DNA of 64,000 nt from Octopus vulgaris (lineage: Eukaryota). The stretch is from contig OX597834.1 of the NCBI GenBank assembly GCA_951406725.2, forward strand, positions 38,440,001 through 38,504,000, read 5' to 3'. The translations under genes were made by a program, and so were the position numbers. Positions 1,748-64,000 of this stretch are shown here, one piece after another (position 1 is the first letter of the stretch; every line of letters begins with the position of its first letter). The notes under the pieces were generated by a model, which made no database searches, was not told where the DNA came from, and saw only the letters and a program-made list of their open reading frames with translations.

Positions 1748-2299
1748 ACAAAAGAGGAAAAGAGTATATATATACACACATATATATGCATGCATGTAAA
1801 TATGTATGTGTGTGTGGTCTTGTGTAGCTGTTTTCCCCTTCTTTTTATCTTTATCCTTCTCTTGTATAAACAAAACCTGACTAGTGTCACCATTCAGTAC
1901 CAATCACTGATGAAGTAAAGTGTTACAATACTTTCTTCGCCCGGATTGCATAACCCCGCCGTAATATTCACTGAAACACATGTAAGATGTTAAATAGCTT
2001 ATGAACCCAATCCCGTTTTGTTTTTTTTCTCTCTAATCTGTGATATTTGAAAGTATGGGAATCAGTGGAAATTTGGTCTGTTATACAGCAATTCTCTTTT
2101 CTCTTCCTGTGTATAAAGATGCATACGGAGATCTAGATATCCATTGTATGCCATGCAATTTAAATCATACTAAATTATATATAAGCATGTATGTATTTGT
2201 ACGTATTTATACACCTCTACGAATATACGCGCGCACATACAACACACACACACACATACAGCACTCACACTTACACACACACACATACAGCACTCACAC

Positions 2300-2348
<49 letters not shown>

Positions 2349-2443
2349 CATATTCACCGGGAAATTTCGAAGTTAGAGCAACCGACCACTTCCATTGTGA
2401 AAAGAGACAACTAAATTTGTTTTGAGCGTTTCACTGATTGCAC

Positions 2444-2520
<77 letters not shown>

Positions 2521-2879
2521 TGTGTGCGACTGTATGTGTATGCATGCGTGTGTGTGTGTGTGTGTGTGTATGCAGGTTTTACTTTATAGTACAGTTTAGT
2601 TTTCTTGAAAATGAGAGACCTCACCTCTAGTCTCAACAAAAACAGTTAAAATTGAGAGAGGAAGTGTGACCAGGAAAAGGTGTTTGATGTGTAATAGACT
2701 GCTGTTTTTTCTAAAAAATGGAAAATCGACACAGAAAGGGAGAAAGTAAATCTACGAGATTGAAAGAGCATAGGCAGATAGTTATAAAGGCAAAGTGACA
2801 GATAGGGAAGTATACAAACACATTGTTATTTATTTATTTATTTTATTTATTTACAGCGATTTACAGGATTTAAAGATTT

Positions 2880-3176
2880 AGGTAGGTAGGTAGATAGATA
2901 GATAGAGAGAGAAAGAGAGACAGACAGACGGACAGACAGACAAAGTCAGACAAGGTCAAACAGACAGAAAGACAAAGACCGACAGATAGGTAGGTAGGTA
3001 GGTAGGTAGGTACATAGGTAGGTAGATAGATAGAGATAGATAGAGAGAGAGAGAGAGAGAGACACACACACACAGACAGACAGACAGATAGATAGATAGA
3101 TAGATAGATAGACAGAGAGACTCACAGACAGATAGATAGATAGACAGACAGACAGACAAGCAGATAGATAGATGGG

Positions 3177-16592: not shown

Positions 16593-17875
16593 ATCTATCA
16601 TGATAAATGTTGCTAAATTGAACTTCCAGTAGTCTCTGCCCATACGTGTTTCAGTTGTGGGTTCGTTCATTGTTTACCATATGTGAACGTTATTACCGTA
16701 TACTAATTACATAGCTATAATAATATTTTGAGTTTAAAATAAATTTTAAACAGTACTGAAATTTTTCATTGAATTTATAAAGAAACTATTTTAAAATGCT
16801 TATACATAAGATTAATGATAACTTGGACAATTTGTTCAGAGTATGTAATATAACTGGTAACGCTGTAGCAGCTATTGTGTAATGTAATGAGCAATAAGTA
16901 ATTAACAGCGCCTTACGTTTGAATGGTAAATAAAAGTTCACTGAATTACATGTTCCTCGCTCTTCTCGGTTTATATATTACTATTATGAAATGCATAGGT
17001 AATTTACTGTATCAAGACATTTTATTCTATAGCAATTATACTGCTTCTGTGTTTTGGTTATCCATGTTTTTGCGTTCATTATACAGCGTGAATGGGCGTT
17101 TGTCAATAGATTTTACTAAATTGCCAAAGTAGCATTAAATATAAACTTTTAAATAAAATAGCAATGGATTATTGTAGCAGCATCGAATTAATAATATAGC
17201 CACACTCAGTCGTAAAATGCAATGAATTTGCTGCTTGTATTTTGTTACAGAAACCTTATCAATTACACCCTGTTACACCGAAATGCAAAGGTCTACAAAA
17301 GACACACACACACACACACACACACAGACACAGACACATACACACACACACATGTATGTATATATGTGTGTGTGTTTGCTATATGTGTTTTCAAAACTGA
17401 GACATTTCAAGTGGTTCTCAAAACTGTTTTTCCTAATGTTCATCGATAAGTAGGATGTTCGAGAATAATTTGTATACGTCTAGGTATATTCAAATATTTA
17501 GTAGAATCTTTGTTCAATGATCAGCATTAAATCAATCATTGTCACTTGATTTGTTTCGTTTGAAATACGCCGTCATTCACTTTATTACTAATACGATATA
17601 GCCATCTTAATACGCATATATTTATTGAGACAAGAAGTTTTAAGATATTTATATTGTTTGTCTCTTGCACACTATTAGGCTAAAAAACAGTTAAGCAACG
17701 ATTTATATTTTGATGATATATTGCAAATGTTAACAATGAATAATTCAATGTTACTTTATAAAAAAGGGAGTTTATTGAACTTATGATATAGCTAACCATA
17801 CATTTATGTGCTGGAAATTGCATTATATATTCATATACCTAAAACATGCATATAGATAGAGTTACAATATATATA

Positions 17876-18037
17876 GGCGCAGGAGTGGCTGTGTGGTAAG
17901 TAGCTTGCTAACCAACCACATGGTTCTGGGTTCAATCCCACTGCGTGGCATCTTGGGCAAGTGTCTTCTGCTATAGCCCCGGGCCGACCAATGCCTTGTG
18001 AGTGGATTTGGTAGACGGAAACTGAAAGAAGCCTGTC

Positions 18038-18121
<84 letters not shown>

Positions 18122-18356
18122 ATGTATGTTTGTGTATGTATTTGTGTGTCTGTGTTTGTCCCCCTAGCATTGCTTGACAACCGATGCTAGTGTGTTTACG
18201 TCCCCGTCACTTAGCGGTTCGGCAAAAGAGACCGATAGAATAAGTACTGGGCTTACAAAGAATAAGTCCTGGGGTCGATTTGCTCGATTAAAGGCGGTGC
18301 TCCAGCATGGCCGCAGTCAAATGACTGAAACAAATGACTGAAAAAGAGTAAAGAGT
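17876..18356 (+). mobile_element. SINE family A, full length
   Basis: Complete head, (TA)n centre and tail. Confidence 0.93.
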
Positions 18357-18402
18357 ATAGCAGTTAACGTAAGTATTGCAAATACATATCTATACACATG
18401 TG

Positions 18403-30230: not shown

Positions 30231-30325
30231 ACAAAACGATATAGATACACACCCATATACAGATATACGCTCGCACACACCTTCATGTATATTACATACA
30301 TACATATATACATACATACATACAT

Positions 30326-30555
30326 ACTCTTTTACTTGTTTCAGTCATTTAACTGCGGCCATGCTGGAGCACCGCCTTTAGTCGAGCAAATCGACCCCGG
30401 GACTTATTCTTTGTAAGCCTAGTACTTATTCTATCAGCCTCTTTTGCCGAACCGCTAAGTGACGGGGACGTAAACACACCAGCATCGGTTGTCAAGCAAT
30501 GCTAGGGGGACAAACGCAGACACACAAACATATATACACACACACATACTTACAT

Positions 30556-30592
<37 letters not shown>

Positions 30593-30722
30593 CGACAGGC
30601 TTCTTTCAGCTTCCGTCTACCAAATCCACTCACAAGGCATTGGTCGGCCCGGGGCTATAGTAGAAGACATTTGCCCAAGATGCCACGCAGTGGGACTGAA
30701 CCCGGAACCATGTGGTTCCGGG
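30326..30722 (-). mobile_element. SINE family A, young, 5'-truncated
   Basis: High identity to the reverse complement of 17876-18356. Confidence 0.92.
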
Positions 30723-31449: not shown

Positions 31450-31540
31450 GTTTTGTTGAATTTTCTGCTGCTTTAAATAAAGTATAAATATATATATATA
31501 TATATATTGATCAAAATAAAAACATGATGCCAAGGATTCA

Positions 31541-31618
31541 GCGGTACATATGTTTCAGGCCTTTATTAGACAGATTTATAACAATGCATAATGTATATCT
31601 GTGGCCTTCTTCAGCCGC
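31541..31618 (-). ncRNA. Hammerhead ribozyme motif H4 (left arm)
   Basis: gcgg-CTGAAGA-AGGCC...GGCCT-GAAA-CATAT-GTA-ccgc. Confidence 0.88.
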
Positions 31619-31837
31619 GCACAACACCTTCCACAAGGACATGTGTTACATCAAAAATTCTTGGTTGGGGATGCAAATCCTCTCATTCGCGTACGACATA
31701 ATGCGGCAACAGCATAGAATTGAAGCGTCCATCTCTTTCTTCTCTCAATGTACATTATGTCGTACGCGAATGAGAGGATTTGCATCCCCAACCAAGAATT
31801 TTTGATGTAACACATGTCCTTGTGGAAGGTGTTGTGC

Positions 31838-31915
31838 GCGGCTGAAGAAGGCCACAGACATACATTATGCATTGTTATAAATCTGTCTAATAAAGGCCCG
31901 AAACATATGTACCGC
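31838..31915 (+). ncRNA. Hammerhead ribozyme motif H4 (right arm)
   Basis: gcgg-CTGAAGA-aGGCC...GGCCc-GAAA-CATAT-GTA-ccgc; palindromic stem III ACATATGT. Confidence 0.88.
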
Positions 31916-32018
31916 TGAATCCTTGGCATCATGTTTTTATTTTGATCAATTTACTTACCACCTACACCATCAAACGGTATACACAGGTGCTTATAATTAT
32001 CAAGTACTCACCCCGAAT

Positions 32019-32058
<40 letters not shown>

Positions 32059-42265: not shown

Positions 42266-42379
<114 letters not shown>

Positions 42380-42511
42380 AATATATATAATATATATAAT
42401 AAATTCAGGGTGAATACTTGATAAATGTAAGCACCTGTATATGCCAGCTAGTAGCAGAGGTGAGAGGACATATGTATCAAATGAAATAAAAAACAGAACA
42501 CAAAGGATGTC

Positions 42512-42603
42512 GCGGTACACATGTTTCGAGCTTTATAAAACAACATATTCTTACATCAATGTATAATCGACATAACAGATAGTTTAAAGCCCTCTTCAGC
42601 CGC
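42512..42603 (-). ncRNA. Hammerhead ribozyme motif, H4-related, in element about 42398-42710
   Basis: gcgg-CTGAAGA-GGGCTTTA...TAAAGCTC-GAAA-CATGT-GTA-ccgc. Confidence 0.88.
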
Positions 42604-42710
42604 ATGCGATTGCTACACCAAAGACTTGTATCACATTATGAAAGGTCTGAGAAAGAACATTTGGTATTATTTATAATGGTAGGTAAACTTAGTATCACTG
42701 AGAAAGTATG

Positions 42711-42775
<65 letters not shown>

Positions 42776-51094: not shown

Positions 51095-51476
51095 GAGTGG
51101 CTGTGTGGTAAGTAGCTTGCTTACCAGCCACATGGTTCCGGGTTCAGTCCTACTGCGTGGTATCTTGGGCAAGTGTCTTCTGCTATAGCCTCGGGCCGAC
51201 CAAAGCCTTGTGAGTGGATTTGGTAGACGGAAAGTGAAAGAATCCCGTCGTAAATATCTATATATATGTGTGTGTTTGTGTGTCTGTGTTTGTCCCCCTA
51301 GCTTTGCTTGACAACCGATGCTGGTGTGTTTACGTCCCCGTCACTTAGCGGTTCGGCAAAAGTGACCGATAGAATAAGTACTGGGTTTACAAAGAATAAG
51401 TCCCGGGTCGATATGCTCGACTAAAGGCGGTGCTCCAGCATGGCCACAGTCAAATGACTGAAACAAGTAAAAGAGT
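51095..51476 (+). mobile_element. SINE family A
   Basis: High identity to 17876-18356. Confidence 0.93.
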
Positions 51477-51703
51477 ATATCACATCACATTTTATTGTCT
51501 GCTGCTGTCGTCGTGCGAAATGCTCGATTCCATGTTTATACCATTTGGCTGGTTTAGAGACCCAAAACTCCCTGCACCCGTTTTCAACATCATCCACATT
51601 GCTGACACGTACTCAGCAAATTAAGCTGAGTTTTCATCAAATAATAATGATGATGATAATAACGCACACGCACACATTCACGCACACACACACACACACA
51701 CAT

Positions 51704-56337: not shown

Positions 56338-56489
56338 GGCACAAGAGAGGCTGTGTGGTAAGAAGCTTCATGTGGTTCCGGGTTCAGTCCAACTGCGCGG
56401 CACCTTGGGCAAATTTCTTGTACTATAGCTTCGGGTCAATCAAAGCCTTGTGAGTGGATTTGGTAGACGGAAACTGAAAGAAGCCCGTC

Positions 56490-56527
<38 letters not shown>

Positions 56528-56731
56528 ATTTGTGTGACTGTTTTTGTCCTCCTCACCACCATCGCTTGACAACCGATGTTGGTGAGCTTACGTTTCCGTA
56601 ACTTAGTGGTTCGACTAGATACATCGATAGAATAAGTACTAGACTTACAAAGAATAAGTCCTGGGGGTCGATTTGTTCGACTAAAGGAAGTGCTCCAGCA
56701 TGGCCGCAGTCAAATGACTGAAACAAGTAAA
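56338..56731 (+). mobile_element. SINE family A
   Basis: Full head, body and tail. Confidence 0.9.
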
Positions 56732-57032
56732 ATAATAAACGAACAAAAGAAAACTAAATATTCTGTATGTACAAGACAACAACGACCCCGCTAGAAAATG
56801 GCAGACAAACACTCTTGCCGTGTCGTCTTTATAAAGGAAGTATACATTAGGTGAAGTACTCATCAAATACATTATATATGAAATTAAGACGAGTGGTCAC
56901 GGTTGGAATACCGTTTAGCATAGGTGTGGATCATATATACGTACACACACACAATATATATATATATTTACATATATATATATGCGTATATATATGTATA
57001 TTTATATGTATATATATATGTGTGTATATATG

Positions 57033-63106: not shown

Positions 63107-63705
<599 letters not shown>

Positions 63706-64000
63706 AAGTATATATTTTTTAAACAAGAATATTATTGGTAGTGAGTTCGAAGTTACGGCCAGCAATTCGAATAATAAATTTGTACTCTCCAAAAAGTGAG
63801 AATATGTAAGGCTGTATAGTTATGCCGGCATGTTTATATATGTGCATACAGGAGTAATTGCCTGTGCATACATGTATGCATAACGTGCATCAGTGTGTAT
63901 ATGCGTTTGCTTGTGCATGTTTGAGTTTGTGTGAGCCTGTTCATGCATGCATGTATGTGCGCATGTGTTTGTTTGCATGCGTTGTGTGCATGCGTTTGTC

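What the first reader, a model, noticed from the sequence alone, without database searches (positions are those of the whole stretch)
42398..42710. Diverged H4 relative provides covariation support for the hammerhead
It shares the 3' end with 31975-32020 (caggtgctta..ttatcaagta.tcacc..gaattt) and the identical stem I and core (gcgg-CUGAAGA, GAAACAU.UGUA-ccgc). Stem II has changed on both strands (AGGCC/GGCCU versus GGGCUUUA/UAAAGCUC) and still pairs, with a long loop of different sequence. Retaining structure through sequence change argues for selection on ribozyme function.
Basis: seen in the sequence. Interest (0 to 1): 0.72.

Follow-up and report, generated by a model that had tools for sequence, protein, structure and literature searches.

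The report
Hammerhead-bearing end of Penelope-like retroelement
This is the broken-off end of a common jumping gene (a Penelope-like retroelement) that carries a predicted self-cutting hammerhead RNA; the RNA's core has stayed unchanged while the rest of the element diverged, but such ribozymes are already known in this group and cutting is untested.

Summary
The stretch (minus strand, 42710-42398) is a 5'-truncated 3' end of a Penelope-like retroelement (PLE) inserted in (TA)n, one of thousands of candidate copies. It holds a complete type I hammerhead layout. It and the 31.7-kb 'H4' element are two subfamilies of one Hydra-like PLE lineage: full-length copies show hammerhead - tail - ORF (RT, CxCX5C linker, GIY-YIG-like end) - hammerhead.

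'GGCCU' is a private change of the inverted H4 copy (1 of 50 H4 copies), only one pair differs on both sides between the two subfamilies, the 'loop' is a homologous paired arm, and a 13-sequence covariation count does not beat its shuffle control. Stronger evidence: 0 of 24 core, stem I and stem III columns vary among subfamilies versus 35 of 65 flank columns, while synonymous ORF sites differ at 70-79%. Private mutations hit core and flanks equally, so selection acts on source elements, not on this copy.

PLE hammerheads, including an octopus Hydra element, are published. Cleavage is untested.

The parts
42398..42710 (-). 5'-truncated 3' end (pseudo-LTR region plus tail) of a Hydra-like Penelope-like retroelement, subfamily A of this report
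   Evidence: 40 best genome matches 92-100% identical, 2247 first-look candidates; the family continues upstream in other copies and ends at the same 3' point; long copy L117 links it to an RT ORF
42600..42603 (-). hammerhead stem I, 5' strand GCGG
   Evidence: sequence; (4 pairs invariant in 13 of 13)
42593..42599 (-). catalytic core CUGAAGA (C3-A9)
   Evidence: sequence; invariant among 12 subfamily majorities except N7
42528..42592 (-). helix II arm: 8-bp proximal stem (42592-42585 with 42535-42528), predicted middle helix and 10-bp apical hairpin
   Evidence: (z -2.65)
42516..42527 (-). core GAAA, short near-palindromic stem III ACA-UG-UGU, and GUA triplet; predicted cut between 42516 and 42515
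   Evidence: sequence; self-duplex -6.0 kcal/mol, palindromic variants -7.0 and -10.3
42512..42515 (-). hammerhead stem I, 3' strand CCGC
   Evidence: sequence
42470..42481 (-). first preferred 3' end of insertions (TTTGAT, about 40-46 nt after the predicted cut); inverted copies stop here
   Evidence: inverted partners end at query 236-243 of 313; 81 of 106 tail-less copies go into a TA-type run within 5 nt of TTTGA(T)
42398..42469 (-). optional ~70-nt 'tail' with conserved motif 42437-42408; equals the start of the 5' UTR of the next unit
   Evidence: 1589 exact motif matches, 0 for control; runs on into the ATG 186-197 nt after the cut in full-length copies
42317..42397 (.). (TA)n-rich target, downstream side
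   Evidence: sequence; TA run within 22 nt of the end in 110 of 122 tail-ending copies
42711..42772 (.). (TA)n target, upstream side; marks the 5' truncation point
   Evidence: sequence
31753..32020 (+). H4-subfamily 3' end with hammerhead 31838-31915 and tail
   Evidence: (1706 candidates, top copies 98% identical)
31503..31752 (-). inverted, tail-less H4 copy with hammerhead 31618-31541; carries the private GGCCU variant
   Evidence: (inverted repeat I2)

Best explanation
The stretch is a 5'-truncated, (TA)n-flanked copy of the 3' end of a Penelope-like retroelement, most likely of the Hydra clade, and it carries a type I hammerhead motif that is predicted to self-cleave and was likely kept by selection on the source elements rather than on this copy. 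Shown: in full-length copies the order is hammerhead - tail - ATG - ORF (RT with YRDD, CxCX5C linker, endonuclease-like C-terminus) - long 3' UTR - hammerhead - optional tail, about 4.7 kb per unit in H4. Inferred from copy ends and from the published PAc system: the element's protein nicks TA-rich DNA and starts reverse transcription inside a read-through RNA at one of two sites (about +40 and +115 nt from the hammerhead cut), copying back through an uncut hammerhead; early stalling gave this 313-bp fragment, and use of both sites gives the head-to-head pairs such as 31503-32020. Inferred: the hammerhead cuts weakly and conditionally (short palindromic stem III completed in a dimer, or with help of the element's protein) to process tandem or read-through transcripts, which is why the core is frozen while most inserted copies derive from uncut RNA.
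For: Architecture: two hammerheads 4675-4797 nt apart flanking the ORF in L271, L272, L275, L277; natural open frames of 842 codons (836 aa from ATG) in L276 and L278; the same layout, with broken ORFs, for sister subfamilies of the window copy in L279 and L117. Motifs DKT 126, YRDD 357, CxCX5C 696, CxxC 793, CxH 823 match the Hydra description in PMC8557442 section 11. 1377 homologues at E<=0.001, best about 33-38% identical. Constraint: 0 of 24 core/stem I/stem III columns vary against 35 of 65 flank columns among the 8 subfamilies with members found without the hammerhead pattern (Fisher p 8e-7), 0 of 24 vs 38 of 65 for all 12; synonymous difference between H4 and window-type ORFs 0.70-0.79, dN/dS about 0.04-0.11. 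On a tree built without stem II, pair 10.2 goes G-C > G.U > A-U, pair 10.5 goes U-A > U.G > C-G, and loop III goes UA > UG > CG, each through a wobble state; chance that 4 such steps all keep pairing 0.025, 0.003 with loop III (post hoc). In contigs of four public runs, none of 27 common variant places falls in core or stem I. Uncut template: 26 of 30 tail-anchored copies carry the 3' half of the hammerhead and none starts at the cut.
Against: No cleavage data. Covariation statistics do not beat shuffles and RNAalifold prefers another consensus. The G10.1-C11.1 pair typical of hammerheads is present in the window's branch only (83 of 195 copies paired), and the forward H4 copy's predicted lowest-energy fold is not the hammerhead. 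No Rfam or Pfam hit. The RWK motif reads RWA and the unit is longer than the '<3 kb' given for Hydra elements; no tree with Hydra reference sequences was built. In the one PLE tested in vitro, hammerhead mutants did not affect insertion (PMC11167929). dN is biased low because only windows with at least 60% identity were counted.
Confidence: 0.8

Rival explanations
1. The motif is conserved as a folded RNA or DNA signal (binding site for the element's RT, or part of the pseudo-LTR promoter) and no longer cuts.
For: Most insertions come from RNA uncut at this site (26 of 30 tail-anchored copies); pair 10.1-11.1 is a mismatch in the youngest, most uniform subfamily H4; the tail motif is also well conserved; PAc inserts normally with a dead hammerhead.
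Against: The frozen positions are exactly the catalytic ones, the only core change fixed in a subfamily is at the free position N7, the NUH triplet is kept, and mismatches at 10.1-11.1 are common in published Hydra hammerheads (supplement table).
Confidence: 0.12
2. The similarity is just shared descent or gene conversion among repeat copies, with no selection on the motif.
Against: Synonymous ORF sites differ at 70-79% while 24 of 24 core and stem positions are identical; the variable helix II arm lies between the two frozen halves; tail-anchored copies, chosen without the motif, show the exact 5' half in 19 of 20 and the exact 3' half in 22 of 26.
Confidence: 0.04
3. It is a stand-alone non-autonomous retrozyme or SINE, or a copy domesticated by the host.
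For: This copy is 313 bp, has no ORF, and keeps an intact core; PLE-derived retrozymes exist (bioRxiv 10.64898/2026.07.22.740005, abstract and introduction).
Against: 5' ends are ragged and copies extend into a long 3' UTR and ORF; no tandem array here; the copy differs from its subfamily majority at only 2 positions in the aligned region, as expected of a young insertion; copies decay neutrally.
Confidence: 0.04

Closest known systems
Hydra clade of C-terminal EN+ Penelope-like elements, including Hydra-1_Obim of Octopus bimaculoides (Craig et al. 2021, PMC8557442; passages, section 11, supplement rows and part 2 of 59 seen)
   Same: DKT, CxCX5C linker, CxxC and CxH near the C-terminus, (TA)n targets, type I hammerhead near the 3' end with CUGAAGA core, extra nucleotide next to the core, 3-4-bp palindromic stem III; N-terminal RRxRW motif region
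   Different: RWA instead of RWK; unit about 4.7 kb (H4) with a 2-kb 3' UTR and 836-aa ORF versus 2.5 kb; hammerhead sequence unrelated to the listed Hydra-1_oBim one; helix II arm 51-66 nt versus 3-10-nt loops in the listed Hydra hammerheads; tail about 70 nt versus 30-40
Minimal and short-helix-III hammerheads in PLE pseudo-LTRs (Cervera and De la Pena 2014, PMC4209133; parts 1-2 of 4 of the text read)
   Same: type I topology, 4-5-bp helix I, long helix II, palindromic stem III suited to dimer activation, many sequence families with compensatory changes in one genome, solo truncated copies, opposite-strand pairs 100-700 bp apart
   Different: here helix II is extended by a long structured arm and G10.1-C11.1 is absent from most subfamilies; cephalopods were not seen in the parts read
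PAc, Poseidon-clade PLE of Anolis (Frangieh et al. 2024, PMC11167929; passages and second half of main text read)
   Same: two preferred 3' ends that bound a tail, AT-rich targets, insertions made from uncut RNA
   Different: in PAc the ORF starts inside the hammerhead; here the ATG lies 186-197 nt after the cut and both ends fall in the 5' UTR
Metazoan non-LTR retrozymes (bioRxiv 10.64898/2026.07.22.740005; part 1 of 5 read)
   Same: type I hammerhead related to PLE pseudo-LTRs
   Different: retrozymes are short tandem non-coding units; this is a truncated end of a coding element

Membership tests
Type I hammerhead ribozyme | core CUGANGA, GAAA, NUH | tested here: met
   CUGAAGA, GAAA, GUA
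Type I hammerhead ribozyme | helices I (open), II and III around the core | tested here: met
   4-5, 8 and 3 bp; enforcing stems I and II costs 0.7 kcal/mol over the minimum; no Rfam model matches, probably because of the long arm
Type I hammerhead ribozyme | G10.1-C11.1 pair | tested here: met
   met in the window copy; not met in H4 and most sister subfamilies (83 of 195 paired)
Type I hammerhead ribozyme | loop I - loop II tertiary contact | not tested
   no candidate contact was modelled
Type I hammerhead ribozyme | site-specific self-cleavage | not testable with these tools
   only contigs, no raw RNA reads were available
Penelope-like element (C-terminal EN+) | single ORF with RT followed by GIY-YIG endonuclease | tested here: met
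   836-aa frames in L276, L278 with YRDD and a VIY..YIG..R..H..E..N C-terminus read by eye; Pfam scan itself gave no hit; two listed homologues carry PF01541 (that this is the GIY-YIG family is recalled)
Penelope-like element (C-terminal EN+) | partial tandem forming pseudo-LTRs with a hammerhead | tested here: met
   two direct hammerheads around the ORF region in 8 of 12 stretches fetched (L271-275, L277, L279, L280; L273 is internally shortened)
Penelope-like element (C-terminal EN+) | 5' truncation, inverted 5' copy, optional tail | tested here: met
   136 of 242 copies with tail, 106 without
Hydra clade | DKG changed to DKT | tested here: met
   ADKTG at 125-129
Hydra clade | CxCX5C linker; CxxC and CxH around the conserved E and N | tested here: met
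   696, 793, 823
Hydra clade | RWK motif at the N-terminus | tested here: not met
   RWA at 39-41 in both lineages
Hydra clade | CCHH motif absent from the endonuclease | tested here: inconclusive
   not seen by eye; no alignment with reference PLEs was made
Hydra clade | generally shorter than 3 kb | tested here: not met
   4.7-4.8 kb per unit in H4
Hydra clade | insertion into (TA)n | tested here: met
   110 of 122 tail-ending copies
Hydra clade | RT phylogeny | not tested
   no reference Hydra sequences were available to the tools; filed as Hydra-like, not as a proven member
Non-LTR retrozyme | short tandem non-coding units each with a hammerhead | tested here: not met
   single truncated copy of a coding element

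The most novel reading that the evidence does not exclude
A Hydra-like PLE lineage uses a structurally distinct hammerhead whose loop II has grown into a 50-65-nt paired arm that replaces the usual loop I-II contact and, with the palindromic stem III, makes cutting depend on dimerisation or on the element's protein; the genome holds a dated fossil series of at least 12 subfamilies with wobble intermediates that shows the ribozyme is required for the element's spread, answering whether PLE hammerheads are passengers.
Probability: 0.2. Interest if true: 0.6.

Novelty: new member of a known kind. Interest (0 to 1): 0.32.

Why it matters
Hammerheads in PLE ends are known, and an octopus Hydra element with one is published, so the finding itself is ordinary. 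Its use is as a test case. Craig et al. 2021 leave open whether hammerheads serve or merely ride PLEs, and Frangieh et al. 2024 found cutting dispensable for insertion in vitro. Here the core stays frozen across a lineage whose synonymous sites are close to saturation, while inserted copies decay neutrally: the motif matters at the step of making new copies. The subfamily series gives natural variants (with and without G10.1-C11.1, with and without the apical hairpin, three stem III palindromes) that can be assayed directly.

Tried and rejected
Rfam at gathering threshold (whole window) and at E<=10 (42380-42730): no match. Pfam on ORF pieces and on the full ORF: no RT or endonuclease hit; one sub-threshold Desmo_N match ignored. 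RNAalifold consensus on 13 sequences: not the hammerhead. In one search my middle helix (columns 61-65 with 105-109) was given out of register, so its row is not informative; the register also shifts between subfamilies. In one search the N7 column was mis-set and a gap was misplaced in a T run; corrected. One search was swamped by (TA)n in one reference; redone, and only its last line is used. Expression: no RNA holder listed; the runs are contigs only and cannot show ends, strand or cutting. Idea that cleavage sets the 5' end of insertions: not supported; 1 of 252 copies starts within 5 nt of the cut, but most of these were selected to span it; in the unbiased tail-anchored set 0 of 30. The PLE-like ORF beside L028 belongs to another insertion downstream of a TA run, not to this family. 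No part of the ORF lies in the window (tblastn empty). Earlier scan notes on this genome concern other hammerhead elements (rewired Naiad type, 359-bp retrozyme) and were not used; look-up by sequence was empty. Literature searches found no paper on this family beyond PMC8557442; Repbase and Dfam were not available, so an existing library entry cannot be excluded. Only rows and 1 of 59 parts of the Craig supplement were seen.

Full report
Observation. The feature lies on the minus strand, 42710 to 42398, between two (TA)n runs. A descriptor scan of the whole window finds hammerhead layouts only here and at 31618-31541; the forward H4 copy at 31838-31915 is missed because its first stem II pair is an A.C mismatch. 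Stem I, the core and stem III are identical between the window copy and H4 (8 of 8, 13 of 13, 4 of 4), the flanks are not (36 of 65), and the 3' motif is shared. The 'loop' is homologous between the two (H4 lacks an 11-nt piece) and folds as an extension of helix II.

What it is. The own genome is 2.8 Gb; from its size, microsatellite load and a named Argonauta homologue it is probably an octopod, which is inference. The window sequence has 2247 first-look candidates, H4 has 1706. Copies share a 3' end in TA runs, have ragged 5' ends and often an inverted partner. Long H4 copies run upstream into an RT-endonuclease ORF. For the window's branch, L117 reads (TA)n - tail - ATG - broken ORF 62% identical to the H4 ORF over the RT - long 3' UTR - hammerhead, and L279 has hammerheads on both sides of the ORF. 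Of 12 stretches fetched for full-length structure, 8 have two direct hammerheads, 4675-4797 nt apart in four H4 copies, and 2 have open frames of 842 codons. The protein has DKT, YRDD, CxCX5C, CxxC and CxH, the marks of the Hydra clade in Craig et al. 2021 (PMC8557442 section 11), but RWA for RWK and a longer unit. That paper lists Hydra-1_Obim from Octopus bimaculoides with a different hammerhead. Pfam gives no hit; 1377 unnamed or hypothetical homologues exist. I file it as a PLE, Hydra-like.

Test of the covariation claim. Pattern searches that fix core and stem I but leave helix II free gave 41, 456 and 168 matches, controls 0 (the two commonest spacings, 51 and 65, were left out on purpose). 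From all loci, 195 distinct copies were aligned; 151 fall in 12 clusters of 3 or more. Pairs 10.2-10.5 are kept in 189, 187, 183 and 190 of 195 copies, pair 10.1-11.1 in 83 of 195. On one natural copy per cluster plus the window copy, 2 pairs show double changes, 90% of cells pair against 30-42% when partners are slid, but no measure beats the shuffle control (120-500 of 500 shuffles reach it), and RNAalifold predicts a different consensus. On a tree built without the stem II columns the two double changes each pass through a wobble state (G-C, G.U, A-U; U-A, U.G, C-G), and loop III goes UA, UG, CG, staying able to form an 8-bp dimer helix. With the empirical mutation spectrum, four pairing-preserving steps have chance 0.025, six 0.003; this is post hoc, leaves out 10.1-11.1 and distal pairs that do break, and the U.G state at 10.5 rests on 3 of 195 copies plus further listed matches. 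Covariation is therefore consistent but weak.

Test of selection. Among subfamily majorities 0 of 24 core, stem I and stem III columns vary against 38 of 65 flank columns; for the 8 subfamilies with members found without the hammerhead pattern, 0 of 24 against 35 of 65 (p 8e-7; columns treated as independent). Synonymous ORF sites between H4 and window-type copies differ at 70-79% (46% for the nearer L280), dN/dS 0.04-0.11, biased low by the identity filter. In 30 copies picked by the tail motif alone, the 5' half is exact in 19 of 20 and the 3' half in 22 of 26. Contigs of four public runs show 27 common variant places, none in core or stem I, three in stem II and two in loop III, all matching subfamily states. 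Singleton changes hit core and stems at 0.82% and flanks at 0.97% (p 0.60; anchors allowed up to 3 changes each). So the motif is frozen in source elements and unprotected after insertion. The window copy differs from its subfamily majority at 2 positions in the aligned region, neither in the core.

Mechanism. Shown: two preferred 3' ends, about +40 to +46 and about +110 to +120 nt from the predicted cut; 136 of 242 copies have the tail, 106 do not, and 81 of those 106 enter a TA-type run right after TTTGA(T); the tail is the start of the next unit's 5' UTR, with the ATG at +186 to +197. Inferred, by analogy with PAc (PMC11167929): the element's protein nicks TA-rich DNA and starts reverse transcription internally at these two sites. 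Since 26 of 30 tail-anchored copies include the cut site and none starts at it, the usual template was uncut there, as in PAc. Inferred from Cervera and De la Pena 2014 (PMC4209133): a 3-bp palindromic stem III makes the monomer weak and a dimer active. My reading is conditional cleavage that processes tandem or read-through transcripts (about 0.8 for the whole reading); a non-cutting binding or promoter signal is the main rival (0.12).

Novelty. PLE hammerheads, their compensatory variation within a genome, and Hydra elements in octopus are in print. Three searches found no description of this family or of its long helix II arm; repeat libraries were not available. New member of a known kind; interest 0.32. 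Papers seen: PMC8557442 passages, section 11, supplement rows and part 2 of 59; PMC4209133 parts 1-2 of 4; PMC11167929 passages and the second half of the main text; bioRxiv 10.64898/2026.07.22.740005 part 1 of 5.

Noticed in passing
window 24061 and downstream, minus strand: Short motif CUGACGAAGAGCUCCGCUCGAAACGUU, a minimal hammerhead-like repeat of another family; a similar UUGAAGAGCGUAGGCUCGAAACGU repeat sits in L117 and L136.
   Followed up: no
window 20228 onward, plus strand: GCCUGAAGAU-UGCC-ACU-GGCU-GACACGAAAC: hammerhead-like words resembling the Hydra 'ctgaagat tgcc' core, with an irregular stem II.
   Followed up: no
L121, L122, L126, L129, L142: 5 of 17 ORF-bearing copies with an intact tail-to-ATG junction begin 23-65 nt after the predicted cut, the other 12 include sequence upstream of it (L121/L122 may be one duplicated insertion). 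Could be cut templates with some 5' loss, or random truncation.
   Followed up: partly
L028:2422-3288 (as oriented) and L116 minus 2531-1491: C-terminal pieces of another PLE with a CxxxCxxC-type linker and GIY-YIG, inserted in TA runs next to copies of this family.
   Followed up: no
L111 minus 6094-3830, L103 minus 7188-4855, L120 minus 4809-2927, L101 plus 1972-3114: Several other PLE ORFs (two long open frames of canonical type, two Hydra-like) nested in or near copies of this family; the genome holds many PLE lineages that insert into each other's TA runs.
   Followed up: no
window 17867-18360, 30293-30718, 51095-51480, 56345-56739, 63376-63715: A dispersed ~400-bp repeat with many copies on both strands, also inserted several times inside long PLE copy L117.
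   Followed up: no
L087, L089-L096 (contigs C35, C36, C21 start, C1): Near-identical copies of one insertion with shared flanks on small contigs, suggesting a large tandem or segmental repeat that captured this PLE.
   Followed up: no
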